DNA of 63,892 nt, filler included, from Kipferlia bialata (GCA_003568945.1; 6 parts of 6 records of this genome joined end to end with filler, not necessarily neighbours in it), one strand, 5' to 3'; shown: positions 13,707 to 43,014, counted from the whole stretch's first letter. Notes: generated by a model from the letters alone, not told the origin. Numbers and translations are program-made.

Positions 13707-13741
<35 letters not shown>

Positions 13742-16700: not shown

Positions 16701-18372
16701 CAAGTATAGGACTGCTCAACTAGGTGTATTCTCTGTCTGCCGTGATATGTATTCGAGTGTACAGTGGGCCGACTCGTCACTGACGAGATGGTGACAATCC
16801 AACCTGTCTACAGTGATACTACACGCTTTGATGATTTCAAGTATATACCTCCAGTCTACTCCTTGGTGTCTCTTCTTGACTCTGCTTGGTACTTGCTATG
16901 ATTTGGCGTGACGCTGAGGTGTGTAGCGGTGCACATACTCACTAATACCGAGTCATAATTGTTAACCGAAACACCCTACTTCTTCAACCCTACAACTATC
17001 TCTGCTCACACTTAGAAATCAGAACTACTCAATATTTATGTTTATACATATAGTCTATGCTCTATAGACTCTATAGTTTAGACTCACACCCAGGCCAACA
17101 TTGACTGGTACCAGATGTGTCTAAGGGCCACCAGACAGGACATGCAGGCAGTGACCAACCCACAACAAGAGGTATATCATATACATAACAACATATACAT
17201 TCACACACCCACACCCACACATACACACACATATATATATATATTAATATATATATTAATATACACAATGTAGACAGGACATGCAGGCGTGGCACAGAGA
17301 CAGACAGAGGTATATACATACATACTATATAGTATCCATAGATTACGTACACTAAGCTCTCGTTGAGAGTGCATTTGCACACTAGCTCCTCCTACGCCTA
17401 GATTCAAACGGGTATCAATATAAGTAAGTGTGCTGTATATCAAGTGCATGTACATACTAATCTAACTGTTAGGGTGTCCTCAGTGCCAGTAGTGAGGTGG
17501 ATGCCCTCCGGTCCCAGGTGTCCGAGGCAACCAGTGAGAACACATACCTCAGGTACATTGTTCATAGTGATATATTCTTACTTATGTGCTATTACACCTA
17601 CTACATACTATCGTAGACGACCAGTGAGAACCCATACCTCAGGTATATAGATCTTGTTCTAGATGGGTAACTACGGTAGTTACTAAACACCAACAGAAGC
17701 ACTCTCCTCTGCAGTGTACTCACACAAATCCCATATATATACTTGTACCTAATACATCCCAAAACCTATCACACACCTGCTACTATTGCTACCCTCAGAA
17801 GCACTCTCCTGTCCATGCAGGATGCCTACCAGAGACATGTGGATACTGAGATCGAGAACTGCAGTGCACACTACAGGGTGAGACGGGGAATCCATATCGC
17901 AACTCTAGAACACAACCACTGTATACATGCACTATTAGAAAACGAACAAGGATACACTCCATTGGGTAACGTACACTGAAAGTGTATATATTGTAAAGAG
18001 TATGCGAATGAGGTACCTGTACTCACGGTAGATACTATGGTATACACCAATCACTAACCCCCAGGCCCAGTACCAGCGCCACATCCAGTCACTAATTACA
18101 TATACATATACATATCCATTAGCCATTCTCTATATGCATACAATATACACTGTGTACTAACCCCTTAGGCCCAGTACCAGCGCCACATCCAGTCCCTCCA
18201 GAGGATGTTACCAAGGACACCCCAAGACGCACATACATCTTACACACATCATGGGGCGTCAGTAACCACTAAGAGTCACTTCTCCCGTCCGGTCTCTAAG
18301 GGCGTCCACCGCCCTGCTGCCTCAGCTCTCACTCTCCCAAAGAGAGAGAGAGAGATTAGGCAGATGCACTGA
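12683..18372 (+). CDS. DUF4485 (CEP112 N-terminal-like) domain protein, 5' truncated
   Basis: Spliced N-terminus LPPRQRVLAERWILRL-RGYDFTVSPVTKRRRNNYARLLLYQ-IETDSRLSYPFTDEP matches the recalled DUF4485 pattern (W..+L ... RN.YA.LL ... PF...P); low-complexity middle; last exon ends ...REIRQMH-TGA at 18370-18372. Confidence 0.7.
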
Positions 18373-19179: not shown

Positions 19180-20968
19180 CTAGGGCAACAGGCCATGCGC
19201 CTCGTTCAGCACCACCCCATGGTCTGGTACAATGCCAGCAGCCTCGGTGCCTGGGGGGTTAGATTCACATATAAACCACACATATTGTAAATATATCGTA
19301 AATATCTACATACTACTATACTCAATGACAATACCTATCACGTGCTCCTTCCAGCCCTTGACCACTGTCTGTCCTGGGACACACTCACACTCGCCAACGA
19401 CACAGGCAACCTGTAGGGTTAGATGATAGTTATCAAAGACAAATACAAAGAATAACGGGTATCTCCCTATAACAGATACACTATATGTATACTATAATAT
19501 GTATGTATACACACATACATATATATATATTAATGCAACATCTTTACATGTATGTATAACATATTACCACTACTATACCTTTGGCTCCATGCGTATCTGC
19601 CTTCTGATCTCGGCAAATCCCTCGCCATAGGCCTCGGCGTCCTGGGGGTGAGGGAGGTAGATGACCTAGTACATATTTATGACTAACATTTACATACAAA
19701 CTTATATATATGTAAATATTTACTATCTATATACCCACCTCTATGTCACAGGCCAGGGGCGTGGCCTTGACGTGCAGGGACTGCTCAAGCAGGGGGCGGG
19801 AAATGTTACGCGATATGCTCTGCCCAAAGACAAATGCCTGGGGTTAATGTATATATCAGAAAGAGAAAATAGAATATGTTCACACTCTCACTTGACACTA
19901 CAATACATTACACATATACATATAGTGTATAGTAGTATACTATATATATACCTCTGACGACTGCAGTATGTCATGCACCCTTGGGCACACTGTCACTTGA
20001 CCAAGGGGAGAGAGGGCCTCCATGCCTCTGGCCCTGGGGTGAGGGATATGTATATATACGAACTATTACATATACTTATATTCCTATTTTGAATACCATA
20101 CGATTATAGATTATACCATACGGTTACAAATGATGCATACCTAGAGGGCGCCGACCCAAACATGTCATAGGCCACTCTGATCCTGAGGGGTCAGATACGG
20201 TTTAATAGACACTGAAACACTCAGTCGTTATGTATTCTGTATTCATTAGGGAGAGAGACATACATACCTTCCCAGAACGGCAGCAAATGCAGGTCCAATG
20301 GCAACTCCACATCTGAGAGTGAGTAGGGGGACTAAGCTACACGATACGGTAACAGTACACAATGAATAAATATATGATATATTACGCGCTACATACCTGA
20401 CGTGCAGGGCCACTCCCATTGTGTCAAAGATGGACTCGGACACAGCCAGCATCTCGTGGCTGGCCTAGGGGTTAGATACTAAGGGCTAATCTAATACTAA
20501 CCACATACACATAGGTCAAATACTATACAATACGTATATATATATCTGTACCTGCACCATGTCACTGCGTCTCTGATCGATGCGACAGCACTATCACAAT
20601 GTATATGAATAATATGTATGTACATTACTATGTATATATTCATCTGCACCTGCACCATGTATGCCACTGCGTCTCTGATGGATGCAACAGTGGAGCACCT
20701 GGGAGTCAGACATCTAGTAAGTATCTAAACCCACATATGTATGCTATGCATATACATTATATAGAAAATATATAAATAGGGTACCTCAGTTCACAGGGGG
20801 TGAAGGGTCTGTAGAGCTCGTAGGCGTCACCGATGGTCTTGACCTGGTGATTAGGCATATGATACCATATTATCAATATATCTATCAGTGTATATTTATA
20901 TATAGAGAGAGAGAGAGAGAGAGATCACCGATGGTCTTGACCTAGAGGGGTGAGACATACAGTGAGAC

Positions 20969-21019
<51 letters not shown>

Positions 21020-23694
21020 GTACCTTCGCCACCCCGTATGAGGCATACTTGTCCACTATCCTGTCAAATGCAGTTACCATACACACACACACATATATAT
21101 ATATATATAGTCACAATATACCTTAGCCACCCCATATGAGGCATACTTGTCCACTATCCTGTCAAATGCAGTGAACATGACATTCAGGATCTGCACCACA
21201 GTGCTGCCATGTCTGGTGCAGTAGCTAGAGGGTTAGAAAACAAAATAATACACACATATAGTAGTGCAAAATCTATATATGCAAAAGGCAGTAGTGAGAC
21301 TGGGATGTATACGGTACATATATATATATATGATGATATACTATACATTGCAATACCTTGTGAACCCTGCGATGTCCAGCTTGGCATACACCATCAGGGG
21401 GAAGAACTCAATGTCACTGCTGGGGGTAAGATGGATAAGCAAACTATCTGAATATAGAAGAACTTGTGTAGAGACTATACATACTCAATGACACATATAC
21501 ACGATATATGTCATATAGGGGAAGAACTCAATGTTACTCCTGGGGGTAAGAAATAATAATATTGCTAACGTGTATGTATTGGTAAACATATACAATAATG
21601 GCAGACATAAGTATTCCATCAGGGGGAAGAACTCAATGTCACTCCTGGGGGTAAGAGAGTATGTACATATATATACACTATACAGATACCAAGTATGTAT
21701 AAGACATAGTAAATCGATTAGACTAGTATAAATCAATAACACATCCCTACCTCTCCATGATGCTGCACTCAGCTGGTGTGGCATACTAGTCCCTCTATAT
21801 ATCCATGTATCTATAGATATATACCTATATACATACATAGACACATATGTAATTAATCATGTATACACTATACCTCTCCATGATGCTGCACTCAGCTGGT
21901 GTCGCATACTGGCCACTCCCGTCATTGACAGTCTCTCTCTCTCCCTCGCTCTCCCCCTCGCTCTCTGCCTCTCCCTCACTCTCCTGTGGGCTGGGTGACT
22001 TAGTGGCACCGGGTAGGGATATCTGGAGACCGGGGAACGGTGGAGAGAGTGGGGGTAGAGGCGGGGAGAGAGAGAGAGAGTGGATGTCCGAGGCAGACAT
22101 CCCGCTGAAGAGGCTGCTCCTCCTCTCTCTCTCCTTCCCTCTCTCCCCTCTCTCCGTAGTATCTCCATCCTCTGACACCCTAGGAGACCCATACTCCCTC
22201 ACCCTAGGGCTGTCTGTGTCTCTCTCTCTCTCCCTCCCACTCTGCATCCTGGGGCTGTCTGTGTCTCTCTCACTAGACCTTGGGCTGTCTATGTCAGCCA
22301 TGGCACACAGGAGACTGTTGCTGTCAATGCGGCCAAACCTATGGGTGAGAATGAGCACATTCGAATGGAAAGAGGTTGGTGCACGGATGTCATACTAATA
22401 ACTACTATGTAGCAGTGTATATATGCCCATACCTCCCACTGACTGGTGTGGATGGACACCGCCTGGCACTGCTCTTGCAGCTGGACCTGGGGGTGAGTAC
22501 ACATATGTTTGTTAGCGTATATACATATTTGGTATTCATGTATATATATATGTGCGTATATCCATGTATATACGCAGACAGACTCATACCTGGCGCTCAT
22601 TGGCACCCCCTCACACTATATATATATATATGTATATGTATATGTGAATGGTTATATATATAAATGTATATTCATTTGTATATCCATGCATACCTTGCAC
22701 TCATAGGCACCCCCTCACACTCCTCGTCCCTCTCTCCCTCTCCCTCCCCCTCCCCCTTGGCCTCAGTGTCAGAGGGGCCATCATTCAGGGCGGGGTAGAA
22801 CTCTGAAAATGAGTGAAGTGTGTGTTGCGTATATGGATAGTTTCACCAGCTATACAGTGAGGATTAGAGTGTCAAGGCAGGGTAAAATATATCAAGCTCT
22901 AGTTTCTCACCTTGGAAGCACCTCATGACTCCAGTATCTGTTGTAGCTCTCTCTCTCTCTCTCTCTCCATATATATATTACTCTACTCTACATATGACTA
23001 ACTGTCTCACCTTGGAAGCACCGCATGACCCCAGTCTCAGTGGTGGGTGACTCCACATCCTTCCCATTCTCCTGAGTACCTATAGGGGTGTCACGGAGCT
23101 GAGAGACTAGGGGTAAGCTAATTAATTTAAATACAATACATATAATAATATAAATATAGATATATGGTACACGACGTAGGGTGTCACGGCGCTGAGAGAC
23201 TAGGGTAAGCTTATTATAGAGAGTGTACACGACGTATGTTGAACGTTGAACGTTGAACGGTACCTGACATTCCCATGACCTTGGCGTCGAATCTGTCGAA
23301 TATGGACATGGCTCCCCTAATGTGAGTGGGGGAGAGAGAGAGAGAGAGAGAGAGAAATGTCAGGGCCAAATATATAATCAATGTGAAAGTGTAAGAATAA
23401 ATATAATATATATTCAATTATATACCTCATAACCACTCTCTGAGTGCTCGTGAGAGACCGGAAGTCAGATGCCCTAGAGGCCTGGGGTGAGAGGTGAGGC
23501 ATGGAAATGACAGAACACACACCAATGTAGTATAGATATATATATTCTGTAATTTAGATATATATATATATATATAAATATGTATATACATAAACATCCC
23601 AACCTTGTAGTTCCTGGGCAGGAGTCCCCCCTCCTCTCGGTCTTCATACTGGGCAGCACACTCCCTGGGGTTAGGCATGAATACGATACACACA

Positions 23695-23742
<48 letters not shown>

Positions 23743-23895
23743 TATTCATATATATACTTATATTAATATAAATACCCACCTCATGCTGTTGACAAACAGG
23801 GGCAGTATCACACACCCCTCCACGGCTGGGGTCACGTGCCTCTCGTCCATCTCTCTGGGGGTGAATAAAGGGTGTATAGAGAGAGTAAAGGGTGT

Positions 23896-23930
<35 letters not shown>

Positions 23931-24722
23931 GAGAGGAAGGGAGCTACTCCATTTTGTATGTGTCGTATACATACGATATATACATGGAATGTATACAAAC
24001 CATATACACATACCTCAAGAACTTTGCTGCATTCCTAGGCATCCCATCCATCTCCATATACCCCCATAAATGATTACGATTGCGTATGTACACATACCTT
24101 AGGAACTTTGCTGCATTCCTAGGCATTGTGGCCGAGGAGAAGAGCTCACTGGTGTCTGCCATGTAGGCCTCGAGGATCCTGGGGTTACAAAGAACATAAT
24201 ACACAATGATTATAGGGGTAGATATGCAGAAAGAGAGAGAGAGAGAACAAGAAGAAGATGATGACTGGTGTCTGCCATATAGGCCTCGAGGATCCTAGAG
24301 TTAGGTCACATTTATGGATAGGGATTAGGGTGTTTACCAGAGTAGAAGAAGATGACTAAATATAGAAGTAGACAGTATATACCTGTTGAAGTATCTTCCA
24401 CTGGCCACCCTAGACACTAGGACCTTGGCAGCCACTGTCTCTGTGATGTACTGATGGCCAACAAGCACAGAGACAACCTGGGGTAAGAAGGCAATAACAG
24501 TACAATGATAATGTGAATAGTTAAATAACAGATACAGTACTTGTGGTGGTGGCCGACAAGCACAGAGACAACCTGGGGTGAGGAAACACCAGGATAATAG
24601 GAATAATAGATACATTAGTAATATACACACACATCTATATATATGACCCTACCTGCACCAGGCACTGTGATATGCTGAACAGGGTGATGGGAAGGGTGGC
24701 CAGCATCATGAAGCCACACTGT
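19180..24722 (-). CDS. Membrane-anchored class III nucleotide (adenylate-type) cyclase, 5' truncated
   Basis: Spliced motifs YAKLDIAGFTSY, ILNVMFTAFDRIVDKY, KVKTIGDAY, VRCGVAIGPAFAAVLG, RVAYDMFG..ARGME; hydrophobic upstream exons; exact stop uncertain. Confidence 0.88.
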
Positions 24723-24942: not shown

Positions 24943-27900
24943 GGACTCATCGAGCTCAGACAAACGGTCGACAAGGGCCTGGGGGGGAAGAGAGGGGATA
25001 TATAGATATTAAGGTGTATGTATGAGAAAGACTAACTACAATATAACACATTGGAGAGAGACTGGGGGGGGGGGAGAGAGAGAGACAAGAGACAATAAGG
25101 GATGGATCTAGCTCTGACGACGCGGGGGTTAATCGAATACAAATATGAAGAGAGTATACACATATACGTGTAGAGATACATAGCACATATCACTCACGCT
25201 GTGTCTCTTCTCGCTGTCCCTGATCAGTGCACTCAGCATCCTGTCCAACTCGGCTAGGTCGGCACTGGGGGTTAGAAGGTTACTAAATATATGTATACAT
25301 ATACTAACACCACTCACTCTGTCCTAGTCTCAATCTCAGCCACCGCGGCCCTCCACTTGGTGTCCAGGGACTTGACCTCGGAGTGGAACCTGGGAGTAAA
25401 GGGTGCCGATATATTGTATATAATCATATTGTATTATCGCATCAACAGTGTATATGTCAGTACTGGGTATCAAGGGACTTGACCTCGGAGTGGAACTTAG
25501 CCCTAAGTATATGGATACATACACACATGTATGTATATATAGAATGTATATGTATATTGCTATCAAGGGACTTGACCTCGGGGTGGAACCTGGGATGAGG
25601 GAATAGTATTGGTGTATGTATGAATATCAAAAGAACATCTATATAATATAGATGTAGTAATATATGTGCATGGTGTGGGGTGGATATGTATATACCTCCT
25701 GAGCAGGTCCAGGCTGCTCCTCTGCTCCTCAATGACATTCAGTTAAATATATACACAGGTATAGTATATATTCTTATTTACATATATATTAGTATACCTC
25801 CTGAGCAAGTCTAGACTGCTCCTCTGCTCCTCAATGGCAGTCATTTCAATATATACACAGGTGTATATAGTATATACATATATACATATGTATAAGTATA
25901 CCTCCTGAGCAAGTCAAGACTGCTCCTCTGCTCCTCAATGGCAGCCATGACCTCGCCCCTCAGCACATCAAACCTAGGGTGATAGAGAGTACAGAGTATA
26001 TATCTCTACCATCTCTACTATTTCACATACATTTGTCTCTCACCCCTAGATATTTTCTATATGCATTGCCCTGTCCACCTGGGAGTGCATGCCACATACA
26101 TACAGATATACATATATATCTATCTACATGTATATAGGTATACATCCTCACCTCTGCATTGCCCTGTCCACCTGGGAGTGCATGCCGTCATTGGCCTGGG
26201 GTGGGTAGGTATATGTGGTACTATACACAATTACTATATGTACATTAGTCACAATCTATCACAATACACTGTGTCATGCCGTCATTGGCCTGGGGTGGGG
26301 GGTGGGGGGGGCGGGGGGATGACCCAAGACCAATGTATCATACATATATATATATATATAACAGTTACTATTCATAACTATATATCAATAAACATACATG
26401 CCGTCATTGGCCTGGGGTGGGTATGCATACGTGGTGTTCCGCATAGTAGTCTTGAGTATAGAGGAGAGAGAGCAATGACAATGTGTACCTCTCTGATAGC
26501 TGTCCTCAGTTCCAGGTCAATCTGGGCAATGCTCTCATCCACAGCCTTCCTGAGGCGTCAATGAAGAATGCCATAGAGTAAATGTATATACGCCCAGAGT
26601 GTCTGAATGTATTGAACACGTCAGTAACGAAAGTTACATACCTGATATGGTATACATTCCCTCTGATTGTGACCAGCTCTGTGTGGAGGGTGGTCAGACG
26701 CTCAGACAGGAGCTGGAGGTTGGAATTGGGAAAGACATATTGTATGCATATAGTGGAGCCTGACCTCTATCACCATTGGTAGATATATTAATGCATACAC
26801 TATTAAAATATATATAATAGTCTAACCTTCTTACTAATGACGTATACGAATATATACTGAATGTCATACTCTCCTACCTTCTTCTCCTCCCTGAGCTTGA
26901 CCTCCTCGGCCTCAATCAGACCCTTGGTGAACAGTTGGGCCTCGGTCTGCTGGTCTCTATGGGTTAGATAGTATATGTATATACAAGTATTTTTACATAT
27001 GTATAGTGATAGACTGTAGACGGGTGAACAGCTGGGCCTCGGTCCGCTGGTCCCTAAGAGCACAAAGGTATACTCAATTCAATAGAAAGACACATATATA
27101 TACAAATATTAACACATATATATGGTGTGTATGTGTCCTCTGATAATTTTGATACGTATATACTATATATCTACCTGATCAGGATGGGTGTCTCTGCCAC
27201 AAACTGGTCACACTCTCTGATGAGTGTCTGGGTCTGGTCCTCCAGGTCGGACAGGCCCTTCTCGCCACTCGCGGTGAATGCCTGATATCAGTATATATAT
27301 GAGAATACACGAAGGAATATATGTAACTATATAAGAGTACATAAATATATAGAGTCAGACAGGCCCTTCTCGCCACTTGCGGTGAAGGCCTGGATGTAAG
27401 TACCAATGGAGAAAGAGTATCTATTTGATAACAATCATAGTAGATACAACATGTTCTACTGTCCATACAGATGTACCTGGAGTTCACTCCTGTACCATGT
27501 CTGATAATGTGTATAGCACATATTCGCCATTTGATATATAGTGAGTATACTGTGTACTACTAGTCAATATGTACCTGGAGTTCACTCCTCAGAGCTGTCA
27601 CCCTGTCGTTGTTGGCAACTACATTGGCTGGGGGTGAGAAAGAGTACATTTGTTACCTATACACTAATATATATATATCTGATTTACTTATTAATTTATA
27701 TATATATAGGATAGAGACTTTGTTGTTGTTGGCAACCACATTGGCTGGGGGTGAGAATGCATAGATAATACAATATGGAATAACCCATACACTTGTCAAC
27801 AAATACTGACGAGTCCTGTCGTTGTTGGCAACCACACTGGCTGGAGGTGAGAAAGGGTAAAGTATCATACATCAACAAGTATGTATATAAACAATTATGA

Positions 27901-30900
27901 CTATAGATATACCATAGCCGCCTGTCTGGCCAGTGATACTGTATAAATACACAACATATACTAATATTTGCCTCTTATTAGCATATATCTAACCTTGAAT
28001 AGTAATCAGTGATGCCGTCTGCCTTGCCAGAGGCTGGTCCAGGTCGTTGAATGAGGCAATGGTGTGGGTAGAGACACCCACAGAGGAACGGTTCTCCTCG
28101 ACCCTGGGGGTGAGGCCCCATAAGCATGGTATACTCCAATATATATCTCTCTCTCCCTATATATGATTATTAGTCATATATAGTAGTGATAGTAACTAAA
28201 CCCCCCATCCTGTGTCTTTATGCCAGTCTTCATGTCATCCAGTGCCTCATACATATAACTACCATCCTACATATTACTATATCTCTCTATATATGTGTAT
28301 ATACTATTAGTAGCAAGTATACCTGCCGTCCAATGTCTTGATACTGGCCTTTAGGTCATCGAGTGCCTCGTACAGATCCCTATATATATATACACACATA
28401 CACAGTATGAATATATACAATACCTTCCGTCCAACGTCTTTATGCTAGCCTTCAGGTCATCCAGTGCCTCATAGAGATCACTGCTGGATGTGATGGACCC
28501 AGCCACGGTGTTGAGGTTCTTGTTGACCTTGCCCACCTCCCTGTCGACATAGCTCTGAGGTGAGATATCAGTGTCTCTGACTAATACATATATATATATA
28601 TATATGTGCATAAAATACACTCGTGTTGACCTTGCCCACCTCTCAGTCGACATAACTCTGACGGTTAGGATGGAGACAGAGAAGGTAGGTAACGTAAATG
28701 AATAGAATACTTGCACACATATACCCACTTCAGACACTTCTCCGGTTGTGTGCCTCTCAGACATATATAGTATTTAGACTCTATACATCAAATGTAAATG
28801 AACACCACACTACCTTCAGATATGTCTGTTGCTGTTTGAGCTGCCCTATGCTGCTGCCTGTCTATCTCACATATATATAATTATATATGTATATATATAT
28901 GTGTGTGTGTAATACCTTGAGATATGTCTGCTGCTGTTTCAGCTGTCCAATGCTACTGCCTGTCTCTCTGACATGTCTCTCCACATAGATCCTATTCGCC
29001 AGGGGCATGATGACACCCACAGTGTTGCCCTGATGTAAGAATATATATATATATATATACATATAGTATGAATATAGACACGTGAGTATATATGATATAT
29101 ATCCTGTTGGCCAGGAGCATGATGACACCCACAGTGTTGCCCTGATGTGAGAGAGCCATTACGGATAGAGAATGAAGTCTAGCGAAAGCACAGAGAGAGA
29201 CACTAAATCTCTAGAAGAGGGAATCATATTTACTATAGGAGCTCAGAGAGCAGAATGCTGAAGATAGAGTGGGAGGGAAGGGTGAATCCTCCAGTATCTC
29301 ATTCGTAGAATTCGGGCGAATAATATGATACAATAATGCGTAAATTCTAACTGCCATACCCTCTCTGCCTTCTTGGCATACTATACACTTATACTATGCA
29401 TATATCTGCCATACCCTCTCTGCCTTCTTGGTCAGCTGGTACTGGATGCGGTGCATGAAGTCCTGGGGTGGGTGTATACATATACATATACATATTAATA
29501 ATGTATATACAAAATGTATATTAATGCAGAAAGGGACGAGAGGAGAGACAGGAAAGGGGGGCGGTGCATGAAGTCCTGGGGTGAGTGTAAATTATACATA
29601 TATATATATAATGTATACACATTCCATATACATTAGGCGGCGAGAGTAGAGAGGTGTGGTGCATGAATTCTTGGGGTGAGTGTATAATATTTGACGAACG
29701 TGTGTTGAATACGTTGCAGAAAGGGGAAGAGAGGAGAGAGAGGAAAGGGGGGCGTAGGGAGAAGAAGGACGAGGGGAGAGATAGAAAGAGGAGGGGGGGG
29801 GGGGGGGGGGGGGAAGAGGAGGCAGGGTCAGAGGCAGACACTATGAAAAGAACTATTGCAATGGATATTGACTAACGTGTCCAGAACCACTATACCCCAT
29901 ACCTCTGCCAGTGGGGCATCGGGGTATACTACATAATGTGTATACTATATACTGTGTATACATATATATTAATACATATATAGACAGTGACCATATACAC
30001 ACCTCTGCCAGTGGGGCATCGGGGTATGCAGCATCAAGACCACCAGCAAAGGCAACCTGGAAGGTCAGTACATAGATATATAGTATATATAATATACAGA
30101 GAATATGCATATATAATGTACATATACAAACCACCGGCAAAGGCAACCTGGCATGTCAGTATACATCAGTTGTCAAAGTAGGTAGTATCCCTATCCATGT
30201 ATAGTATTAACCTATATACAAAGATAGAGATTGTATATCTACAGTGCATAACTGTCTCAGTATCTTGATGAATGGTACTGGGTACATCAGTGGCAAAATA
30301 CCCGTAGAGTTATTATCCACATATTATCCACATATATATATATATAGTATACATATATATTAACACATATTTAATGGTATACCTGTCTCTGTGTCTTTAT
30401 GTCAGGCACTGGGTGCCTCAGGGGTAGGGACAGGGTGTGGTGACCAGGGGTGGGGGGGAGGGGGAGGGACCCGTGGCCTGAGGGTCAGCAATGGATTTCA
30501 CTGAATCCACATATCATACATTACATACAGACCTATAGACACTCTAGTGCCAGGGGTACCAGTACGAGGGTCGAAATCTGTACATATATACACACATATA
30601 TATACACACATACTAACGATGGGGCTGTGCCAGGGGTGGAGAGGCATACATATATATATACATGAGTATATATATATAGTGTCAATATCCATAGCATATG
30701 TACCTATTAATGATGGCGCTGTGCCCGTGCCAGGTGTAGATAGGGCCCGGATGAACAAGGTGGGGGTCTGGAAGGGCTTGCCTAGAGTGAGGGGGAGAGA
30801 GAGAGAGAGAGAAAGTCTGGAAGGGCTTGCCGAGTGAAGGAAAGACAGACAAATACATACCTGTAGACATACATACACAAACAAGGAATGTATCAATCAT

Positions 30901-32047
30901 TTATGTACTTTACACTTACATGTATATATATATTCGATACCTGTTGCCATCATATATATATATATATTCGATACCTGTTGCAGCTGCCCCCTCAGCTGGC
31001 ACTGAGAGAGAGAGAGAGAGAGCATATGTACATATACATATATAAGTGCTGATGCATATACATATGCGATACCTGTTGCAGCTGCCCCCTCAGCTGGCAG
31101 AGAGAGAGAGAATGGCGGCAGTGGCAGTGTGAGTGCCCCCTGTCTGTGGCCAAGGTGGGTGCAGGAGGAGAAGAGGGGGTCTCTCTCTCCCTCTCCCTTG
31201 GGGTGAGTATGAATACAGTGCTACGGTAATTATAGATGCATTTGTATATATGTCTATATACACATATATACCTCTGCGTCACTCCCCCCTTGGACCGAGC
31301 ACTCCAGCACCACACCCCCGCCCCCACATGCACCGGTGGACATGGTGAGGCTGGTCAGGACAACACTGAGGGTTAGTGTGTTATGTACACAAATACAATA
31401 GTACATAGTATATGGTATATATATATATATATATACATGTACTGGTGCTGGACATGGACAGGCTGGTCAGAACAACGCTGAGGGTTAGTGTGTTATATAT
31501 ATCTATATATATATATATAGAGAGAGAGAGATGCGCAGGCTGGTCAGAACAACACTGAGGGTGAGTGTGTTATATATATACTCAAATACAATAGTATATA
31601 GTATATGGTATATATATATATATGTACTGATGGTGAGACTGGTCAGAACAACGCTAAGGGTGGGTATGAGATACATGTATCTATATATATAGAGAGAGAG
31701 GGAGGGAGATGCACAGGCTGGTCAGCACAACACTGAGGGTGAGCGAGCGTATCCGCACTCATACATATACTTATACACACAGTCATACCTGCACGTGCCG
31801 CTCTGTACAGAGGGGGCAAGGCATTAATACATTATACAATATAGTATATATAGTATATATTGTATATATTGGATATATAGTATATATAATACATATAATT
31901 AAGTATATATAGTATATAATATGATAATATGAATATACAAGTTACTCAATATACATTGACACACACACCTGCATGTACCACTCTGCACTGTGTGCACAAA
32001 GGGGGCGGTAGTATACACTGATAGATCTAGAGTATCCGTATATATGC

Positions 32048-32090
<43 letters not shown>

Positions 32091-35035
32091 GTACCTGCAT
32101 GTGCCACTCTGCACCGTGTGCACAGAGGGTACATTCACATAGAACCCCCATACAACTATATATTACTTGATACTTCAATATATAGATATATACTTGTATC
32201 CATACCTACACGTGCCGCTCTGCACTGTGTGTACAGACGGGGCAGTAGTATGTACAGTCTATCTATATTATACCATAGTACATACTTGTATACTAGTACT
32301 GTATATATACATCCCTACCTGCATGTGCCGCTCTGCACTGTGTGTACAAAGGGGGCAGGGGAGCCAGAGAGCAGGGAGCGGAGGGGGTTGGCCCTGGGTA
32401 TGATTACACAAAGAAGAGAGTAGAAATAGAGTGAGAGAGAGAGATAATTGAAGTGGCTCGGCCAGTTCTGGGACTAAACATTGTTATAGCGATACATATG
32501 ATATTATGCATACAGCGGAAGAGGAATATAGAGAGATACCTGCATACAGTGGGTGCTGGCAGTGACTGTGACAGGTGGGGGTATATTATATATAGATATA
32601 TATAGATAGATCTATAGATAGACACATGTCTACGTATACACACCTGTATACAATGGAAGAGAAAGAGAGAGAGAGAGAGAGATACCTGCACACTGTGGGT
32701 GCCGGTAGTGACTGTGGGACAGGGGGGGAGTGTATCTCCAGGGTGACACAGACAAGGCCCAGCTCAGGGACAGGGAGGGTAAACTCACAGAGACCCTATG
32801 GTTATGGGGGAGAGAGAGAGAGAGAGCTGCAGAGAGAGAGAGACTCAATATGTACCTGTGAGAGAGATGGCGTGGCCGCTGTGTACACGCACTTACATAC
32901 ACATACAGATATAGATGCATATATATACATAGACACATACCTGTGATAGGGTTGGTGTGGCCGCTGTGTACACTGCTCTACACAGAAACAGGCATATATG
33001 TATATATGTGTATATAAATGTGTATTAACATATACCTGGGTCAGAGTGGGCGTGGCCGCTGTGTACACACTGACCCTGCCAGAGGGATGGGCCTTGGCAC
33101 TGAACAGGAACCTAGTAGTTAGGGTATATAGATGTGTTGGAATATATATATGTATATAGGATGAATAGAGAGAGAGAGAGAGAGAGAGACTAGAGGGGTG
33201 GGCCTTGGCACTGAACAGGAACCTAGGAGGTTGGTATACATTGTATATAGGGAGATAGTGGGGGGGGGGGAGTGTGTGTATACCTATCCTGCGCATCGTG
33301 TGGACACAGTGACACAGCCAGGGGATGTATATACATATACATACATATCTATATCTATATGTATATATACATACCTGTCCTGAGCGTCGTGTGGACAGAG
33401 TGACACAGCCAGGGGAGGGAATGCCACGGGTATGGTGGCCAGGGGAGGGGGGGAGGCAGGGGTATGGGAACCAAGGCCACCCTCTCTCCTCTCCCGCTCT
33501 CTCTCCCTCTCCCTCTCTGCCACGGGGTCCTTGCGTCTGAAGAGACCTGGGGTCAATACATATACATGTATATATATATATAAATATATATATATATAGT
33601 CTGAAGAGACCTGGTGTCACAATAGACAGGTAGCATATCATATTTATATACTATATAGAGGAAGTCTATGTACTCCCTGCCACGGGGTCCTTGCGTCTAA
33701 ATAGGCCTCGTTATGAGTACACATACATGTATATAAACAGGTTTCGCATGTTGATGTATGGTATGTATATATCATAAAGGTACCTAATAGACTGGGAAAA
33801 GATACACTAGACTCTGGCCACCATAAGCACTATAGATAAACTATATATATACATATATATATATGGTCCTTGCGAATACCTATAAGACTAGGAAGAGATA
33901 CACTTGCCTCTCCCTCCCCGTAACCAGGGGGGCACCCTAACCAGTATAGGATACATATGGTATCTATACTATACATACCTAGCAAGCTAGGCAATGATAC
34001 ACTTGGCCTCTCCCTCCTAGTGACCAGGGGTGCACCCTTCTCTGGCTTGTCTGTGTGTACATGCACACCCCTGTCCAGCGCATCGACTGAGGGTGAGGGT
34101 GTACAGATACAGATGGTGTATACTATATTCTACCTATATACCTTGTGGTCATGTCTGCTTGGAAGACATAAACAACAAATAGTGGACAGGTATATATATA
34201 CAGATCGGGAGATAGATATATGAATACCTAAGGGTGTCCTCTCCCCTGTTCCCTTGCACCCGTGTGCACTGAGGTCTGTCTGCTCACAGGACAGGGTGCC
34301 AATGGTATCTACCTCAACCTCAACCTGGGGGTTAATGCTAGAAGACATATATGATATATCCATGAAGAGAGAGAGAGAGAGAGAGAGAGAGAGTTGGTCA
34401 CAGGACAGGGTGCCAATGGTGTCCACCTCCACTTCTACCTAGAGTCAGTGTCAATAGGTATATCATACACTAGAAGAGAGAGAGAGAGGGGGGGGAGACA
34501 AAGCAACTCTACTCTGGCTGATGAGAGAGGGAAAGAGAGAGAGATGAGAATCCAACTGTGGCTAGGGTGAGATATAGTGGGAAGCAGAGAGAGACAGGAG
34601 ACAAGAGGAGGCTACCTGAGGATAAGCACCATCATATACAGGTACATTGGAAGAAGTATCTTAAGTTAGACAAGGGTAGGTGTCAGTGGAGGTACCTACA
34701 TATATGTATTTTCATTTATGGTATAGAGAGAGGCTACCATATTGAGAGAGAGCTGAGAGAGAGAGAGAGCCCACCTCTGCCGATGCCAGGTGCACTGTGC
34801 CCACCACCCCCTCAGTCCCATCCTCAGTCCCCTCAGAGGCAGACTCACTGTACCCAGAGTCCTCACTGCTCTCAGACCCTCCCCTGGACCCTCTAGAGTG
34901 CTTAGAGTTCCTTATGTGCTCACCCCTCCCACTGTTAGTAGTGGCACTCACAGAGACACACACAGACAGGGTCACTCGGTCAAGCGCCTGGGGCGGCACA
35001 CGCACATGCCACAGCCGAGACTGGGTCACGGGCAT
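24940..35035 (-). CDS. Long multi-exon hypothetical protein with a Pro/Ser-rich middle and coiled-coil C-terminus, 3' truncated (could be two genes)
   Basis: Start MPVTQSRLWHVRVPPQALDRV at 35035; helical heptad-rich exons such as SYVDREVGKVNKNLNTVAGSITSSSDLYEALDDLKASIKTLDGR, RFDVLRGEVMAAIEEQRSSLDLLR, ADLAELDRMLSALIRDSEKRHS. Confidence 0.6.
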
Positions 35036-35745: not shown

Positions 35746-37037
35746 GACCTACAAGGAGCGTGCCATTGTGTTTGTCAGGACCAAGAAGAGTGCCCACCTG
35801 CTGACAGCATTCCTGCAGGTATATAACAAATACATAGTATACCACATATATATACATAGTACTATGTATTGTTTGTTATATATATATATATGTATGTTAT
35901 ATTCTGACAGCATTCCTGCAGGTATATAATGAATACTATATACATACACTATACCATAATGAATACTATATACATACACTATACCATGTATTTCATTTAA
36001 TCCCAGGCCCTCTCTCTCTCTGTGGATGAGATGCACGGACACATTACATAATTCTTACAAGTATAGTATACATAGTATTATGTATTATTTGCTATATACA
36101 TATAAATATATGAATATTACATCTAATATCAGGCCCTCTCCCTGTCTGTTGATGAGATGCACGGACACATTGCATAATACTTATTAGTATAGTACATAGT
36201 ATTATGTATTATATGAATAATACATCTAATATCAGGCCCTGTCCCTGTCTGTGGATGAGATGCACGGAGACCTCTCCCAGGCACAGAGGCTGTCTGCACT
36301 TGATAGGTACTATTAATATAGAGAGGACATTATTATTCACACACTAGTATATCATACTTACTTATGTGAAATGGAGACCTCTCCCAGGCACAGTGCCCTT
36401 GATAGGTGAATAGTCTCTCTCTCACTCACACACACTCTCTCTCTCTCTCCCTATCTATGTCTTATACCCAGGTTTGAGGATGGCACCATCAAGGCCCTCA
36501 TCTGCACAGACCTGGCATCAAGAGGTATATTGTATGTGTATATACATATATATGTATATACATATTTTTTTATATGTTGTATGTGTATCCATTGTGTCCC
36601 CATCATATATGACACTCATCTGCACAGACCTGGCATCAAGAGGTATTGTTATAGTATATATATATATATATATATATTTATTTATACATATATATATATA
36701 TATATATATTTATATTGTATGAGTACCTATTGTGTCCTCATCATATATGGCACTCATCTGGCATCTAGAGTATATGTATACAATGCAGTGTGTGTGTAAA
36801 TGTATAATTGTCTGTTTGTCTTATATATATAGTGATATATGTATATATTGGCTCACCCAGGCATTGACGTTGCCGGTGTCGAGGCCGTGATTGAGTTTGA
36901 CAATATATATATATACTTTGTATATATACTCTCTATGTATATGGTCTCATCCCAGGTATTGACGTTGCCGGTGTCGAGGCTGTGATTGAGTTTGACATGG
37001 CTAGGACAGGGGAGGAGCACGTGCACAGGGCTGGGCG
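35746..37037 (+). CDS. DDX27: DEAD-box RNA helicase, DDX27/Drs1-like, C-terminal RecA domain only
   Basis: Spliced TYKERAIVFVRTKKSAHLL..-..EMHGDLSQAQRLSALDR-FEDGTIKALICTDLASR-GIDVAGVEAVIEFDMARTGEEHVHRAGR (motifs IV, QxxR, V, VI); subfamily assigned from recalled similarity. Confidence 0.85.
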
Positions 37038-37221
37038 GTGAGTGTATATATGTATATATAGAGAGAGAGAGAGAGAGAGATAAGGACAGGGGAGGAGCAC
37101 GTGCACAGGGCTGGACGGTTAGTATATGAATACGTATGTATATATATATATAGAGAGAGAGAGAGACAAGGACAGGGGAGGAGCACGTGCACAGGGCTGG
37201 GCGGTGAGTATTATATATATA

Positions 37222-37505: not shown

Positions 37506-38926
37506 GCTGCCCAGTATGCCGCTGCCACCCAGGGTGCAGGGGCAGGGTATGGACAGCAGTACGCATACGCATACATGCCAGGTGGGTGTAGAGTGTACAC
37601 ATATATATATTGTAGATGCGTATGGATACCAGATGGGGATGATACCCCCTCCCCATATTTACCACCACCTTGGCTCAACTCTCTCCCCCCCCCCCCCTCT
37701 CTCTCCCTCTCACTCTAGGTGTCTCCTACCAGTCCTAATACACCATGACTGTCTTTTTTTCTCTCTCTCTATATATATATATATATGTGTGTGTCTCACT
37801 CCAGGTGTCTCCTACCAGTCCTACTACACCATGCCGGTCTCTGTCCCAGTGGCACAGTACTCCAAGAAGCTGGGGAGGAAGCTGGTCGAGTTCAAGCCAA
37901 GGTATGTATATACTTGTATATAGTCATATTCTCTCTCTCTCTATATATATATACACTCACCCCAGGGATGACGATGACAACATTGTGCCCCATGGGTTCA
38001 ACGTCAAGAGGTGGTTTGACTACCAGGTACCCTATGCCTATCATACAAGTATTATACATATTTGTGTATAGTTGTTGTATATATTTGTAGTATATGTATG
38101 TAGTTGATATAGTATCATCGTGCCCCATGGGTTCAACGTCCAGAGGTGGTTTGACTACCAGGTAAAGGGTGCATCTATTATGTGTGTAATAATAACTAAT
38201 TACTATTTAGGTATTATATAATGTCTAACCTTTAAGATTATTAAGCACGAGGAGCTGAAGAAGGACAATTCTATGATGATGTGGTGTACATTAGTTGTAG
38301 AATAATATTTATTTCTCCCCATCTCCTTCTAACCCTAGCACGAGGAGCTGAAGAAGGACAAGAAGAGTAGTATTAATATATATTTATATATATGGTATAT
38401 GTATAGTATATATATACTATATACGTGTCTAACCTTAAAGCACGAGGAGCTCAAGAAGGACAAGAAGAAGAGTATATATAGTATATACGTATAGTATATA
38501 TATATATATATATAGTGTATATATAGTCAGTACTTCTAACCCCAGCACGAGGAGCTCAAGAAGGACAAGAAGAAGGCCCCCAAGTCCAAGAACGGGTTTG
38601 GGTTCCCATTCGGCAGGGCACTCGGAAGGGTGGAGGCAAAGTGAGTATTGTCATATATATATGAACACTCTTAGTATACCCATTTCTTACGCGATAGGTA
38701 CGGAGGCACCACCACTGCCTTCTTTGCCCTGGCCAGGTGGTTCCTGATGCTCAACCTCTTCCTGTGTGCAGTGTGGATTGGACTGGTGGTACTGCCAAAC
38801 TACAGGTATACTCTCTCTCTCTCTCTCTCTCTCTGTCATGTTAATATAATAGTAAGTATGTGCAGTGTGGATTGGACTGGTGGTACTACCCAACTACAGG
38901 TATGTATATTATAGTATATTGTATAG

Positions 38927-38958
<32 letters not shown>

Positions 38959-39234
38959 TGTATATATCTCAGGTATGGTGTATTCTAGTATATATAAGAT
39001 ATATAGTGTAGCAGTGTGGACTGGTGGTGCTGCCAAAGTACAAATATACCCCCCCCCCCCTCTATACTCCTAATATCCAGCGATGCCCCCATCCCCGACT
39101 CCTACTGGACAGACTCTCTCTCTCTCTCTCTCTCTCTCTCTACACCCTTATTCCCAGCGATGCCCCCATCCCTGACTCCTACTGGACAGACTCCTCCCTC
39201 ATAGACTTTGCAACAACCCTGGTCACATGGGCAG
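37506..39234 (+). CDS. Transmembrane channel-like (TMC family) protein, N-terminal fragment
   Basis: Spliced FPFGRALGRVEAK-YGGTTTAFFALARWFLMLNLFLCAVWIGLVVLP resembles the TMC pre-TM1/TM1 signature (L..IE..FG..V.SYF.FLRWL..LN). Confidence 0.72.
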
Positions 39235-39406
39235 GTATATATATATTTTGTATATGGTATATATATATACATAAGAGAAGGGGAGAGGGAGTATATATGT
39301 AGTGTGTATATATAGTATCTATCATAGACTATGCAAAAACCCTAGTCACATGGGCAGGTATCTATGTGTAAAAACTCCTATATTGTATTGGTGTTCTCTC
39401 CTGCCA

Positions 39407-39437
<31 letters not shown>

Positions 39438-39706
39438 TTTCCCCCCCTTCCCCCCCCCCCCCCCCCCCCCCCCCCGTGTCTCTCTCGTTTAACTCGACAG
39501 CATTGTTTGACCCCTAGGCTAATGAAGAAGTATTCGTTTTGCATGTGTGTCCGTTTATGTCGTGTATCTTCTCTTCCATTCTGACCCACCACTTCTCTCT
39601 CTCTCTCTCTCTAATACTTAGGACTGTGTATACGTTCCGTCTCCTGCCTCTTCTCCTCCATCATCATCACCAACCACTTCTCTCTCTCTCTTGCTCTAAT
39701 TCTAAG

Positions 39707-42700
39707 GACTGTGTGTCCGTTCCATATCGTGCCTGTTTGCCTCTATCCTGACACACCACTCTGATATGTCTGTGGATGAGCTGCCCCTGTCTCTCTCTGT
39801 ACTCAAGGCACTCAATGGGGTGACATCCCCGGTTGACATGGCTGCACTCATACACACTGCCAGAGAGCATTACGAGGAGTCAGGTAATAGTTATATATTG
39901 TATTTTTACCTAATTCTTGTGTTGTTCCATGCTGCATACATATTGTAACATAGTCTTCTTCTCTAACCCCCAGAGAGCCATGAGAAGGAGCGCCTTCGGA
40001 ATGCCGAGCCAGACCTACCATCCATACATGCCCTGAGGACATACATACACAGGTGAGATACTTTATTAGTTTCTAACTAATCAGAATTACCATGACTCTT
40101 CCATACATGCCCTGCGGACATACATTCACAGGTGTGGTACAAACATAAACATATACTCTTCATTTACAAATTATACACATATTATGGAATATTACAGTTC
40201 TATTATTGTAATATGTGTCATCTCACACTAGGGAGAGAGAGATGGGTGGTGGGTATGGAGTAGGGATGACATCAGGGGAGAGAGAGAGAGATGATTTAGA
40301 TGAGTTTGAGACTCTGGAGCAGGAGGAGGAGAGGGAGAGGGAGAAGGAGAGAGAAGAGCATGTGCAAGAGCAACAGTCTGAGGAGGTGGGTGTCTAGAGA
40401 GGATATGATATGGGAATGCTTAAATTTCTGGACCTCTAACCCATTAGGACTCCGGTGTCATCTACAACTGCATGGCTCTGAGGCAGGGTCTGGATCTAGC
40501 TGTCAAGGGAGGACTGGAGGTAGAGGGTGAATCTTACGGTAGCAAGGGTAGCCCTAGAGGGTCTCGGGGTGTGAGGCATAGCGATGAGGGTGTCATCATG
40601 ATATCCTTGTGCGAGGTGTCTCTGCAAGAGTTGGCGATGCTCAGCGACATCATTCCTTCACTGTCCGGCAACCTCATAGGTGAGCGTATATATTACTACA
40701 TATGTGTGTGTGAGACCATGTGTTAAGTATATGTGTATGTGGAGACTAGTATGTGCCTCTTCGAATACTGGTGCTGACTCTCAGGTGTCCATATTGATGG
40801 CTCTGCCCCCCCTACGAGTGTCTTCCACTCCATCCTAGAAGAGGAGGCCAAGGGGGCAGCAAACACCCTAGGGGGTACATCACCACTGGCATCACCTGCT
40901 GCAGAGGGGGGAGTGGGACCAACGTCACCAGTCCTGTCAGATATAGGTAAAATTACCAATAGTCACATACTATACAATATACTCTATACTCTATATGATT
41001 TATATAACAATGTTGTGTGTGATATATATCATATGTCCATATTCTTTTCAGCTAACCCCAGCGCTTGGCCCCAAGGAGACACAGATTAGTATTATGATAT
41101 ATCTACCCACTTAAGAGTATTCCACTAACTATAGGCCTGGACCCCGAGGAGGCCGAGAGGGAGAAGGAGAGGGAGAGAGAGCGTGTCTCTGACTCTGACA
41201 TGCAGTATGAGCTGGTGTCTCTGTTCAGCTCTCTGGGTGCAGTCTATAGGTTCAGAGAGCTCAGCCTGCGGTCGGTCAACCTCACAGGTGAGAGAATACT
41301 TCTATTAGATCTAATGTAGGTGACTGTATATTATTAGTTAGTCAACCTCACAGGTGGGATGACTGTATACTTTACATATTTGTATACTTGACTCTGTGTT
41401 CCTCTAATAGCATTAGGTCTTGCCTGCGATGCCCTCGTGTGTCTATTAGACATGAATATACACATTATTGTAGTGACTTGTCTTATTCATTTTATTAGTA
41501 CTAGGCCTAGTATAGTATCTAATCCACAGGTCTTGCCTGTGATGCCCTTGTGTGTCTATTAGACCAGTCCACACACCTACACACCCTGGACCTCACAGGA
41601 TGTACACTGGATCAGGTTGGTTTATGTACTGTATTGACTATAGAAACAGGTGGTCATAAATGGTATATATTTTGGAGGTAGGACTCTTTCTACCCCCAGG
41701 ACGTTGCCCGTCTTATCGGCACTTCCATCTCTCTTATTCTCTGCATATATATGTATTGTATCTCCACTCCACTATGTTCTTACCCCAGGACGTAGCCCCT
41801 CTCATCGGTGCCTCCATCTCCAGTCTCAGACACCTCCGGCACCTATCATTGTACTCCCTCACACCCCTTGCCACCGTTGCAGCTGGCATGCCATCCCTGG
41901 ATGCACTGGTCAGACTGACACACATCGACATGGCATACTGCTACTCGCAGCGGTTCTTATCCATGATCATGGGGGTAGGGGCAGGTATGCGAAGATGTGT
42001 ATATGTCAAATGAATCTTTTGTTGTCTAATGGTGTATATATTCACACCAGGTGGCAGTGACTGTGACCCCGAGGTTGACATAGGCAGTGAGGTCATCACC
42101 AGTCCATACCCATGCACATCAGGTAGAGTATTGTAGGACAGTATATATATGAATTACAGACATATGGCTGTGCATATGAATTTGTGTCTCGCATACCCAT
42201 GTACATCAGGTGCGTTAGACGGGATTAATTATTACATGTATGTACTCTGGTGTCTGTAGTTGTGATGGTTTGTGTGCATGCCACTGTCTGGTATATATCT
42301 CACCCCAGGCCACTACGGTCTGCTCTCATCCCTCAGACACCTCACCACCCTCAATGTCACTGGGTGCCAACTGAGTGCTGAGAGGACAGCACACCTGCTG
42401 AAGGTAATGGATATACTCTGTATTGTGAGGGGAGAACAACAGTATACCATACGATATACAACATGAAGATGGGATAGTGATGGACAGCACACCTGCTGAA
42501 GGTAGGGCCATGACGTATTGTTGATTATCATATAACCGGCATCTAACCCCCTCAGGCCGTGACCCCCTCTGAGTACGGTGGATGTCCCATGCTGAAGGAG
42601 TTGAATGTCAGAAACAACACCTTCCACGCCTGCACTGCCTCTGCCCTCGCGTCCTGTCTCTCTCTCTCCCCATGTCTCACGAACCTTGATATATCCTGGT

Positions 42701-43014
42701 CCCACCTAGGCTCTAGGCTCTTCTGCCACCTCATTCCATACATCACAGACAGCAACCTGGTATCCTTGAACCTGACCTCCTGTGATCTAGGAGACGAGGC
42801 GTGTTTCAGGCTATTGGCGGCTCTTTCTGCATGTCCCACATTGAGAAGTCTCCTCTTAGACTATAACGGGATCACTCTGAAGGGTGCCAATAAGATGTTG
42901 AAGGAGGTGGCACCTGCCAAGCATGTGTCAGTCAGGATGATGGGTACCAACCCCATAAGATGTAGTCTGTTTGACAAGAGAACAGTCGGGAAACTGGTAA
43001 CACTAGACAAATAG
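39707..43014 (+). CDS. Leucine-rich repeat protein (RNI-like), 5' truncated
   Basis: Repeated LxxLxLxxN/CxL units: LHTLDLTGCTL, LTTLNVTGCQL, LKELNVRNNTF, LTNLDISWSHL, LVSLNLTSCDL, LRSLLLDYNGI; TAG at 43012-43014. Confidence 0.88.

What the first reader, a model, noticed from the sequence alone, without database searches (positions are those of the whole stretch)
28621..29150. Adjacent shadows: one synonymous-only, one with a stop, one with a missense change
The copy at 28814-28862 differs from exon 28916-29029 at AGT/AGC, ATT/ATA, GGA/GGG, CTG/CTC, CAG/CAA and CTC/CTG (six synonymous changes in TGSSIGQLKQQQTYLK). The acceptor-side copy at about 28625-28660 reads AGT TAT GTC GAC TGA GAG, with a stop replacing Arg. 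The copy at about 29103-29141 has two synonymous changes and one Pro/Leu change. Inference: shadows arrive carrying coding-type divergence and then decay neutrally, which favours capture of diverged alleles over current translation.
Basis: partly seen in the sequence, partly recalled or inferred. Interest (0 to 1): 0.7.

Follow-up and report, generated by a model that had tools for sequence, protein, structure and literature searches.

The report
Introns holding fossil pieces of alleles
In the free-living protist Kipferlia, over half of the introns examined hold short copies of the neighbouring exon's end that differ from the exon mainly at silent positions and that the one transcript checked skips; they are likely leftover pieces of other working alleles caught by misaligned recombination, which would make one genome a record of hidden diversity and sex.

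Summary
Confirmed, with one correction, and far more general than three copies. The gene is Kipferlia bialata GIQ83564. The "synonymous-only" copy is 59 nt, with 7 silent changes plus a distal stop. A spliced contig joins first donor to last acceptor, skipping the copies. Across 9 gene models, 67 of 115 introns hold 129 such copies: 192 silent versus 80 missense/stop differences, dN/dS 0.145 (0.11-0.19). A copy dead from birth should give about 0.5 (simulated 0.38-0.53), not 1. Copy-versus-copy dN/dS is 0.17. Their splice sites differ from the real ones yet stay consensus; 93 of 112 intron flanks are unrelated. Only 9 of 112 could be translated in frame. So the copies diverged as working exon junctions elsewhere and then decayed; most likely they are pieces of diverged alleles captured by out-of-register recombination (0.6). 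No donor allele was found. Junction-spanning duplications are known (CBS 844ins68); this density and coding-type divergence were not found in 10 searches. The scan noted exon-edge echoes earlier in a sea-urchin gene.

The parts
28916..29029 (-). real exon (114 nt, phase 0) of the coiled-coil gene
   Evidence: exact match to P0001; RNA-like contig X2 record 8, letters 348-459 on 29028-28917, 0 differences
28555..28915 (-). 361-nt GT-AG intron holding one donor-side and one acceptor-side copy, removed whole
   Evidence: contig letters 459/460 join 28917 to 28555 (table 8)
28814..28872 (-). donor-side copy of the last 59 nt of exon 29029-28916, followed by its own GT; 7 silent changes + 1 stop at the far end; flank unrelated to the real intron start
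28621..28657 (-). acceptor-side copy of the first 37 nt of exon 28554-28424, behind its own branch-like motif and AG (site score 11.0 vs 11.2 bits for the real one); 1 silent codon, AGG/TGA stop, 1 missense
28424..28554 (-). real exon (131 nt)
   Evidence: contig letters 460-592
29097..29141 (-). acceptor-side copy of the first 45 nt of exon 29029-28916, with own AG (score 10.1 vs 6.1 bits for the real one); 3 silent, 1 Pro/Leu
   Evidence: DNA contig record 7
29030..29414 (-). 385-nt intron holding a 17-nt donor copy (29376-29360) and the 29141-29097 acceptor copy
   Evidence: skipping inferred from contig depth and record coordinates
29415..29462 (-). real exon (48 nt)
   Evidence: X2 depth in the last bin fits 48 nt
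28323..28381 (-). donor-side copy of exon 28554-28424: 9 silent, 1 missense in 59 nt
28214..28260 (-). older, decayed second copy of the same exon tail: 1 silent, 5 missense base changes, donor lost
25198..29462 (-). transcript-supported part of the gene (coiled-coil, function not assigned); 18 copies in its introns, 36 silent vs 18 other, dN/dS 0.16
24949..24978 (-). acceptor-side copy of an exon lying beyond the contig end: 7 silent differences in 10 codons, 0 missense, against the transcript contig's loose end
   Evidence: read by eye (table 7); assumes the loose end belongs to record 8
30003..35035 (-). upstream exons of P0001 (weak B9-C2 match), probably a separate gene; its introns carry further copies, up to four per junction
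696..5879 (-). gene model A, 21 copies kept (1 dropped beside an N gap)
7047..12253 (+). gene model B, 16 copies
12682..16004 (+). gene model C, 11 copies
17094..18372 (+). gene model D, 3 copies
19180..24722 (-). gene model E (adenylate/guanylate cyclase domain), 12 copies
35746..37038 (+). gene model F (helicase C-terminal domain), 6 copies
37506..43014 (+). gene model G (LRR C-terminus), 15 copies
59258..61930 (+). gene model I, 6 copies

Best explanation
The copies are partial exon ends with their splice site, lying in the adjacent intron and skipped by the one transcript checked, and they likely came from other working alleles by misaligned recombination. Shown: geometry (exon tail + donor after the exon, acceptor + exon head before it), skipping in one gene, dN/dS far below 0.5, splice sites diverged yet consensus, AT-biased missense decay on top. 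Inferred: in an outbreeding, highly diverse population (silent-site distance about 0.14-0.2) introns differ too much to pair, so exons and existing copies are the only homology islands; a junction-spanning duplication seeds a copy (often at a dinucleotide tract), and unequal crossover or conversion with another allele's real exon brings in or refreshes that allele's exon end, splice site and intron flank. Products that delete exon sequence would be lost; duplications survive because splicing likely takes the first donor and last acceptor (exon definition). The copy then decays neutrally. A Dmc1-only, Ku-less repair system would favour such exchanges.
For: 192 silent vs 80 other in 3912 nt, dN/dS 0.145, family bootstrap 0.107-0.189, robust to kappa 1-8 and to base- and neighbour-conditioned nulls; dead-at-birth simulation through the same detector gives 0.38-0.53; deposited-model gene alone 0.13, transcript-supported part 0.16. 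Changes private to one copy 39 silent vs 29 other; neighbouring copies vs each other 60 vs 29, dN/dS 0.17: both lineages were coding. Splice sites differ at 2.7 of 7 (donor) and 5.1 of 14 (acceptor) places but lose 0.3 and 3.1 bits where random change loses 8.1 and 12.0. Flanks beat all controls in only 19 of 112; even those 19 show 25 vs 12. Codon preference symmetric, 95 vs 89. Copies are as far from each other (pS 0.21) as from the exon (0.19), with 3 of 55 site pairs showing four gametes and two 3-state silent sites: more than two recombining donors. Missense changes crowd the far quarter (34 of 80). Fornicates lack Rad51A, have two Dmc1 paralogs, and metamonads lack Ku/DNA-PKcs (PMC8516963, passages); Dmc1 stabilises mismatched heteroduplex (PMC6719624, abstract).
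Against: No donor allele was seen: one letter differs between run X1 and the window in 25000-29500, P0001's cluster has one member, and no allelic protein or locus turned up; the isolate looks homozygous here although the genome paper calls it diploid by k-mers (PMC5874029). Silent divergence is Poisson-even across copies (dispersion 0.92; simulated exponential coalescent 1.18-2.11, fixed 0.66-0.94), which fits a fixed hybrid distance as well as a highly recombining population. Unalignable introns at only about 20% silent divergence need very fast intron turnover, not measured. Only 23 of 129 copies end at a dinucleotide repeat (background 10%). Distal missense crowding can also be alignment run-on. 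Eight of nine gene models are my own predictions. Sex has not been observed in metamonads (PMC8516963).
Confidence: 0.6

Rival explanations
1. Hybrid or allopolyploid collapse: the donors were homeologs of one or a few ancient hybridisations, and the copies are scars of homogenisation to one haplotype. The recombination mechanism is the same; the source differs.
For: Even silent divergence across copies (dispersion 0.92, inside the fixed-distance range 0.66-0.94); apparent homozygosity now.
Against: Two parents predict near-identical copies within a junction; neighbouring copies differ at pS 0.21 with private silent changes and 3-state sites. A 30-nt copy with 7 silent changes in 10 codons (24978-24949) shows a more distant class that the detector would miss.
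Confidence: 0.15
2. Reserve copies kept by swapping within one lineage: collapse or conversion between exon and copy periodically makes the copy the exon, so selection acts on it indirectly.
For: Would also keep splice sites and reading frame; direct repeats about 100 nt apart (median 103) are good substrates.
Against: My reasoning, not a call: conversion removes silent differences at least as fast as missense ones (dN/dS 0.5-1), and a collapse rate low enough to let pS reach 0.19 is too low for selection to see unless diversity is already extreme. Copy-vs-copy dN/dS 0.17 needs long simultaneous coding histories.
Confidence: 0.08
3. Hidden present function: the copies are used in minor, nested or trans-spliced products that are translated.
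For: 48 of 51 donor and 56 of 61 acceptor copies keep GT/AG and score like real sites; only 5 of 129 carry a stop; contigs drop rare isoforms.
Against: Using the copy's site gives an in-frame, stop-free insert in 9 of 112; 0 of 64 tail copies include the exon start and 0 of 65 head copies the exon end; 46 of 66 introns hold one kind only, so nested removal is not general; the transcript contig matches real exons with 0 differences.
Confidence: 0.07
4. Ordinary tandem duplications, dead from birth, with the silent excess coming from exon drift or mutation bias.
For: Geometry is that of junction-spanning tandem duplications (order upstream-tail before downstream-head in 20 of 20 introns); 27 of 129 copies are identical to the exon; 19 of 112 keep a related flank.
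Against: Predicts dN/dS about 0.5; observed 0.145, p below 1e-15 for kappa 1-8; simulation never under 0.38; context-conditioned nulls expect 112-124 silent of 272, observed 192.
Confidence: 0.05
5. Assembly artefact that lays two haplotypes in tandem.
For: Short-read draft, diploid by k-mers (PMC5874029); one probable mis-join nearby.
Against: One 2321-nt DNA contig is colinear over exons and copies at the depth of unique sequence, 0 differences; copies carry stops and decay; up to four different copies per junction.
Confidence: 0.02

Closest known systems
Human CBS c.844_845ins68 (PMC2630376, passages read)
   Same: A duplicated intron/exon junction next to the exon; splicing favours the distal site, so the upstream exon-head copy is removed and normal mRNA results.
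   Different: One polymorphic event; here 67 of 115 introns, both donor and acceptor sides, up to four copies per junction, with coding-type divergence and mostly unrelated flanks.
Intron gain by junction-spanning tandem duplication, potato RdRp (PMC4974935, abstract)
   Same: The duplication crosses an intron-exon boundary and inherits splice signals.
   Different: There a new intron is made; here the copy stays inside the old intron and no new exon appears in the transcript checked.
Junction-spanning internal tandem repeats / minisatellites in human genes (PMC2812944, search listing only; F7, IFI6 named in an earlier scan note, not checked)
   Same: Arrays of exon-edge units likely growing by unequal exchange.
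   Different: Units here are not periodic arrays of one allele: flanks are unrelated in 93 of 112 and differences are silent-biased.
Tandem exon duplication with mutually exclusive splicing (recalled)
   Same: Neighbouring exon copies that diverge at silent sites.
   Different: Copies here are always half-exons with one splice site and cannot be swapped in.
Stwintrons / nested introns (PMC8469720, search listing only)
   Same: Extra donor and acceptor sites inside an intron, donor before acceptor.
   Different: Most introns here hold one kind only (46 of 66), and the inner elements are exon-derived.

Membership tests
Junction-spanning tandem duplication (CBS 844ins68 type) | copy covers an exon-intron boundary, direct orientation, in the adjacent intron | tested here: met
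   112 of 129 reach the boundary, 104 of these keep GT/AG; 0 reverse-strand hits in 230, 9 hits in 1786 non-adjacent pairs
Junction-spanning tandem duplication (CBS 844ins68 type) | normal mRNA by use of the outer splice sites | tested here: met
   one gene only, contig level: record 8 joins 28917 to 28555, and joint 26194/26488 skips two acceptor copies
Junction-spanning tandem duplication (CBS 844ins68 type) | copy made from the resident chromosome (identical at birth, flank repeated, dN/dS 0.5 or more afterwards) | tested here: not met
   dN/dS 0.145; flank related in 19 of 112
Mutually exclusive tandem exon duplicates | whole exon with acceptor and donor | tested here: not met
   0 of 64 tail copies include the start, 0 of 65 head copies the end
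Mutually exclusive tandem exon duplicates | alternative inclusion in mRNA | tested here: inconclusive
   absent from the one contig; contigs drop rare forms
Intron gain by tandem duplication | duplication creates a new spliced intron and exon boundary | tested here: not met
   transcript contig uses only the outer sites in the stretch laid
Stwintron / nested intron | an inner donor-acceptor pair in each case | tested here: not met
   20 introns have both kinds, 46 one kind
Stwintron / nested intron | two-step excision intermediates | not testable with these tools
   needs raw reads or lariat sequencing
Introner (mobile intron) families | the same intron sequence at unrelated sites | tested here: inconclusive
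   copies match adjacent exons only within genes and repeats found are local (one search listed pairs under 1500 nt apart only); no genome-wide test
Captured allelic sequence (proposed) | copy variants present in real exons of other isolates | not testable with these tools
   no second isolate found

The most novel reading that the evidence does not exclude
Kipferlia introns are a running archive of inter-allele recombination: most junctions keep exon ends and working splice sites of several diverged alleles, caught by a Dmc1-only, Ku-less repair system and tolerated by exon-definition splicing in a half-sized spliceosome. One genome would then give silent diversity (about 0.15-0.2), purifying selection and proof of outcrossing in a group where sex has never been seen, and this process would be the main way its introns grow (median 291 nt with copies vs 106 without).
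Probability: 0.5. Interest if true: 0.87.

Novelty: new variant of a known kind. Interest (0 to 1): 0.74.

Why it matters
It would be a genome-wide mode of intron growth by capture of allelic exon junctions, not found in the library searched. [quoted passage not shown] Thousands of natural decoy splice sites, as strong as the real ones and skipped, would test how a spliceosome with 87 of 174 surveyed proteins (PMC6679479) picks the outermost sites. In practice the copies mislead gene prediction: my predictor took several as exons.

Tried and rejected
No whole genome is held for this window, so all counts are window-wide. No RNA holder listed on record; X2 is a guessed RNA run whose contig shows CT..AC joints. 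Contigs were laid on 25000-29500 only; the exon 28916-29029 itself has little X1 cover there, a hole that proves nothing. Searches for other isolates or orthologs: P0001 in metagenome contigs, 439 pattern hits, none confirmed; an LRR exon gave one unrelated 45% locus L001; 50% representatives gave P0001, a K. bialata paralog and one weak hit; shorter proteins, 0 of 2922 candidates. Microsatellite microhomology as the general seed: only 23 of 129, so a contributing factor only. Missense changes are not more conservative than random (BLOSUM -0.25 vs -0.45, SE 0.18). My first filter dropped two long copies, including 28872-28814, and was fixed. Literature: 10 searches found no description of such copies in Kipferlia; the genome paper's main text has 0 hits for 'duplicat'; supplements were not read and subscription papers are not in the library. 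Earlier scan notes on this genome: none.

Full report
Setting. The window is a set of scaffolds joined by N linkers. An exon next to the finding matches, at 100%, P0001 = Kipferlia bialata GIQ83564.1, from a 12332-nt contig, the length of window 24890-37221. An exact spliced alignment gives 25 exons on the minus strand, all introns GT-AG. Acceptors carry a C-rich motif fused to AG and donors GTATG-like motifs, close to the fused branch/acceptor of Giardia (PMC10711314, passages). The protein part around the finding is a coiled-coil of no assigned family; its only clear relative is a K. bialata paralog at 29%.

The observation. The three copies are there. 29141-29097 copies the first 45 nt of exon 29029-28916 behind its own AG: three silent changes and Pro/Leu. 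28657-28621 copies the first 37 nt of the next exon (28554-28424): one silent codon, AGG/TGA and a distal missense. Together 12 silent vs 4 other base changes (p=4e-5 vs neutral, 0.005 vs dN/dS 0.5). DNA contigs of run X1 hold the copies with 0 differences at ordinary depth, and one 2321-nt record is colinear over 26370-28574; X1 may be the assembly's source. A 1993-nt contig of run X2 (guessed RNA; CT..AC joints) matches eight listed exons with 0 differences and runs from 28917 straight to 28555, so the 361-nt intron goes out whole, first donor to last acceptor; joint 26194/26488 likewise skips two acceptor copies. Contigs cannot exclude rare use.

How general. I modelled nine genes: P0001 as deposited, eight by a small predictor trained on it and curated by hand; none has an internal stop, and Pfam supports the frame in 3 of 6 exons queried. 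Genes in 43100-59200 and after 62170 were not modelled. An ungapped, codon-blind search of each intron against its two flanking exons found 130 copies; one beside an N gap was dropped, leaving 129 (3912 nt, median 30 nt) in 67 of 115 introns. Controls: 9 hits in 1786 non-adjacent pairs, 0 in 230 reverse-strand pairs. Geometry is strict: none of 64 upstream-exon copies includes the exon start, none of 65 downstream-exon copies the exon end, and tails precede heads in 20 of 20 introns holding both (one suspect intron left out); 46 introns hold one kind. Introns with copies have median length 291 nt, those without 106.

The key test. A copy dead from birth diverges neutrally while the exon drifts at silent sites, so the null is dN/dS near 0.5; simulation through my detector gives 0.38-0.53 in 30 runs. 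Observed: 192 silent and 80 missense/stop differences, 198 of 272 at third positions, dN/dS 0.145, bootstrap over 88 junction families 0.107-0.189; 0.13-0.18 for kappa 1-8; nulls conditioned on base or neighbour expect 112-124 silent even at double weight. P0001 alone gives 0.13, the other genes 0.15, the transcript-supported part 0.16 (36 vs 18); without the far quarter of each copy 0.11. Differences private to one copy are 39 silent vs 29 other and neighbouring copies differ from each other 60 vs 29 (dN/dS 0.17), so the copy lineages themselves were coding. Two processes are visible: silent changes are symmetric in GC/AT (70 vs 77) and codon preference (95 vs 89), missense changes are AT-biased (41 vs 21). 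An independent case: the transcript's loose end beyond 25198 differs from window 24978-24949 at 7 silent places in 10 codons (by eye).

Splice sites and flanks. 48 of 51 donor and 56 of 61 acceptor copies keep GT or AG; the copy scores at least as well as the real site in 31 of 51 and 24 of 61. The sites are not just preserved duplicates: they differ from the real site at 2.7 of 7 and 5.1 of 14 places yet lose 0.3 and 3.1 bits, against 8.1 and 12.0 for random change (0 of 2000 simulations reach this). The flank beyond is related to the real intron in only 19 of 112. So each copy looks like a working junction of another lineage. Present translation does not explain it: using the copy's site gives an open in-frame insert in 9 of 112.

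Who were the donors. Copies are as far from each other (pS 0.21) as from the exon (0.19), some junctions have four distinct copies, two silent sites have three states and 3 of 55 site pairs show four gametes: more than two recombining lineages. Subtracting decay (twice pN) leaves about 0.14 silent distance at capture (my inference). Against a plain reading: divergence is Poisson-even (dispersion 0.92; a non-recombining coalescent simulates at 1.18-2.11, a fixed distance at 0.66-0.94), which needs either strong recombination or a few equally distant parents, though the detector loses short, very diverged copies. No diverged allele is present in the laid stretch (one letter) and none was found elsewhere.

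Mechanism, inferred. When allelic introns cannot pair, exchange must start in exons. A join of one allele's intron to a point inside the other allele's upstream exon yields exon + intron stub + tail copy + donor; the mirror join yields acceptor + head copy + stub + exon; joins that delete exon sequence would be lost. Once a copy exists it is a second homology island about 100 nt from the exon (median 103), so unequal crossover with another allele's exon would add or refresh copies from the junction outward, which fits missense changes crowding the far quarter (34 of 80; run-on alignment could do the same). Dinucleotide tracts abut 23 of 129 far ends (background 10%) with a small excess of microhomology (1.9 vs 0.9 nt). 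Duplication on one chromosome followed by crossover between exon and copy gives the same signature and is included. Fornicates lack Rad51A and keep two Dmc1 paralogs, and metamonads lack Ku and DNA-PKcs (PMC8516963, passages); Dmc1 stabilises mismatched heteroduplex (PMC6719624, abstract). This fits but is untested in Kipferlia. Tolerance is best explained by exon definition: a tail copy has no acceptor and a head copy no donor of its own, and the shortest exon wins; nested removal cannot serve the 46 one-kind introns; nonsense-mediated decay of mis-spliced forms is not excluded.

Known kin and novelty. Single junction-spanning duplications are known: CBS 844ins68 is skipped by use of the distal site (PMC2630376, passages), and a potato case made a new intron (PMC4974935, abstract). 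The structure and skipping match the CBS type; the origin from the resident chromosome does not. Mutually exclusive exons and stwintrons fail their tests. The genome paper (PMC5874029, passages) and ten searches gave no account of these copies; supplements were not seen. An earlier scan note reports exon-edge echoes in one sea-urchin gene and files them as known; it pointed me to CBS.

Verdict. Real, pervasive and not explained by ordinary decay. Coding-type divergence before capture is shown; diverged alleles as donors is the most likely reading (0.6), homeologs second (0.15). New variant of a known kind; interest 0.74.

Noticed in passing
window about 29790-29815 and exons 30056-30003 / 29462-29415: The transcript contig's loose end upstream of exon 29462-29415 is not the modelled exon and is absent from the window; the paralog matches only residues 451-772. 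The contig is probably mis-joined at the long G/C run and P0001 is probably a chimera of a B9-like gene and a coiled-coil gene.
   Followed up: partly
window 24949-24978 and 25198: The deposited model ends at 25198, but the transcript continues into an exon whose silent-diverged copy sits at the contig end.
   Followed up: partly
window 14255-14264 and 14371-14379 vs exon start 14481: Two acceptor copies read TCA where the exon reads AGT (a serine codon-family switch), outside the part my detector kept (seen).
   Followed up: no
window 49751-58500: GC-richer scaffold part with short introns, few (TA)n tracts and almost no copies: the trait is patchy along the genome.
   Followed up: no
window 13244: A likely GC-AG intron donor in gene model C.
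   Followed up: no
window 55589-55776 and 56430-56685: Two exon-sized repeats about 850-900 nt apart at 83-84% identity with a codon-phase bias: a possible diverged tandem gene fragment rather than a junction copy.
   Followed up: no
window 43100-47800: AT-richer stretch on the minus strand with reverse-transcriptase-like and zinc-finger-like wording by eye, possibly a decayed retroelement or divergent gene; not tested.
   Followed up: no
window 12354-12453, 24790-24889, 37222-37321, 49651-49750, 62070-62169: N linkers with a 12-nt all-frame stop spacer: neighbouring segments are separate scaffolds, not contiguous DNA.
   Followed up: yes
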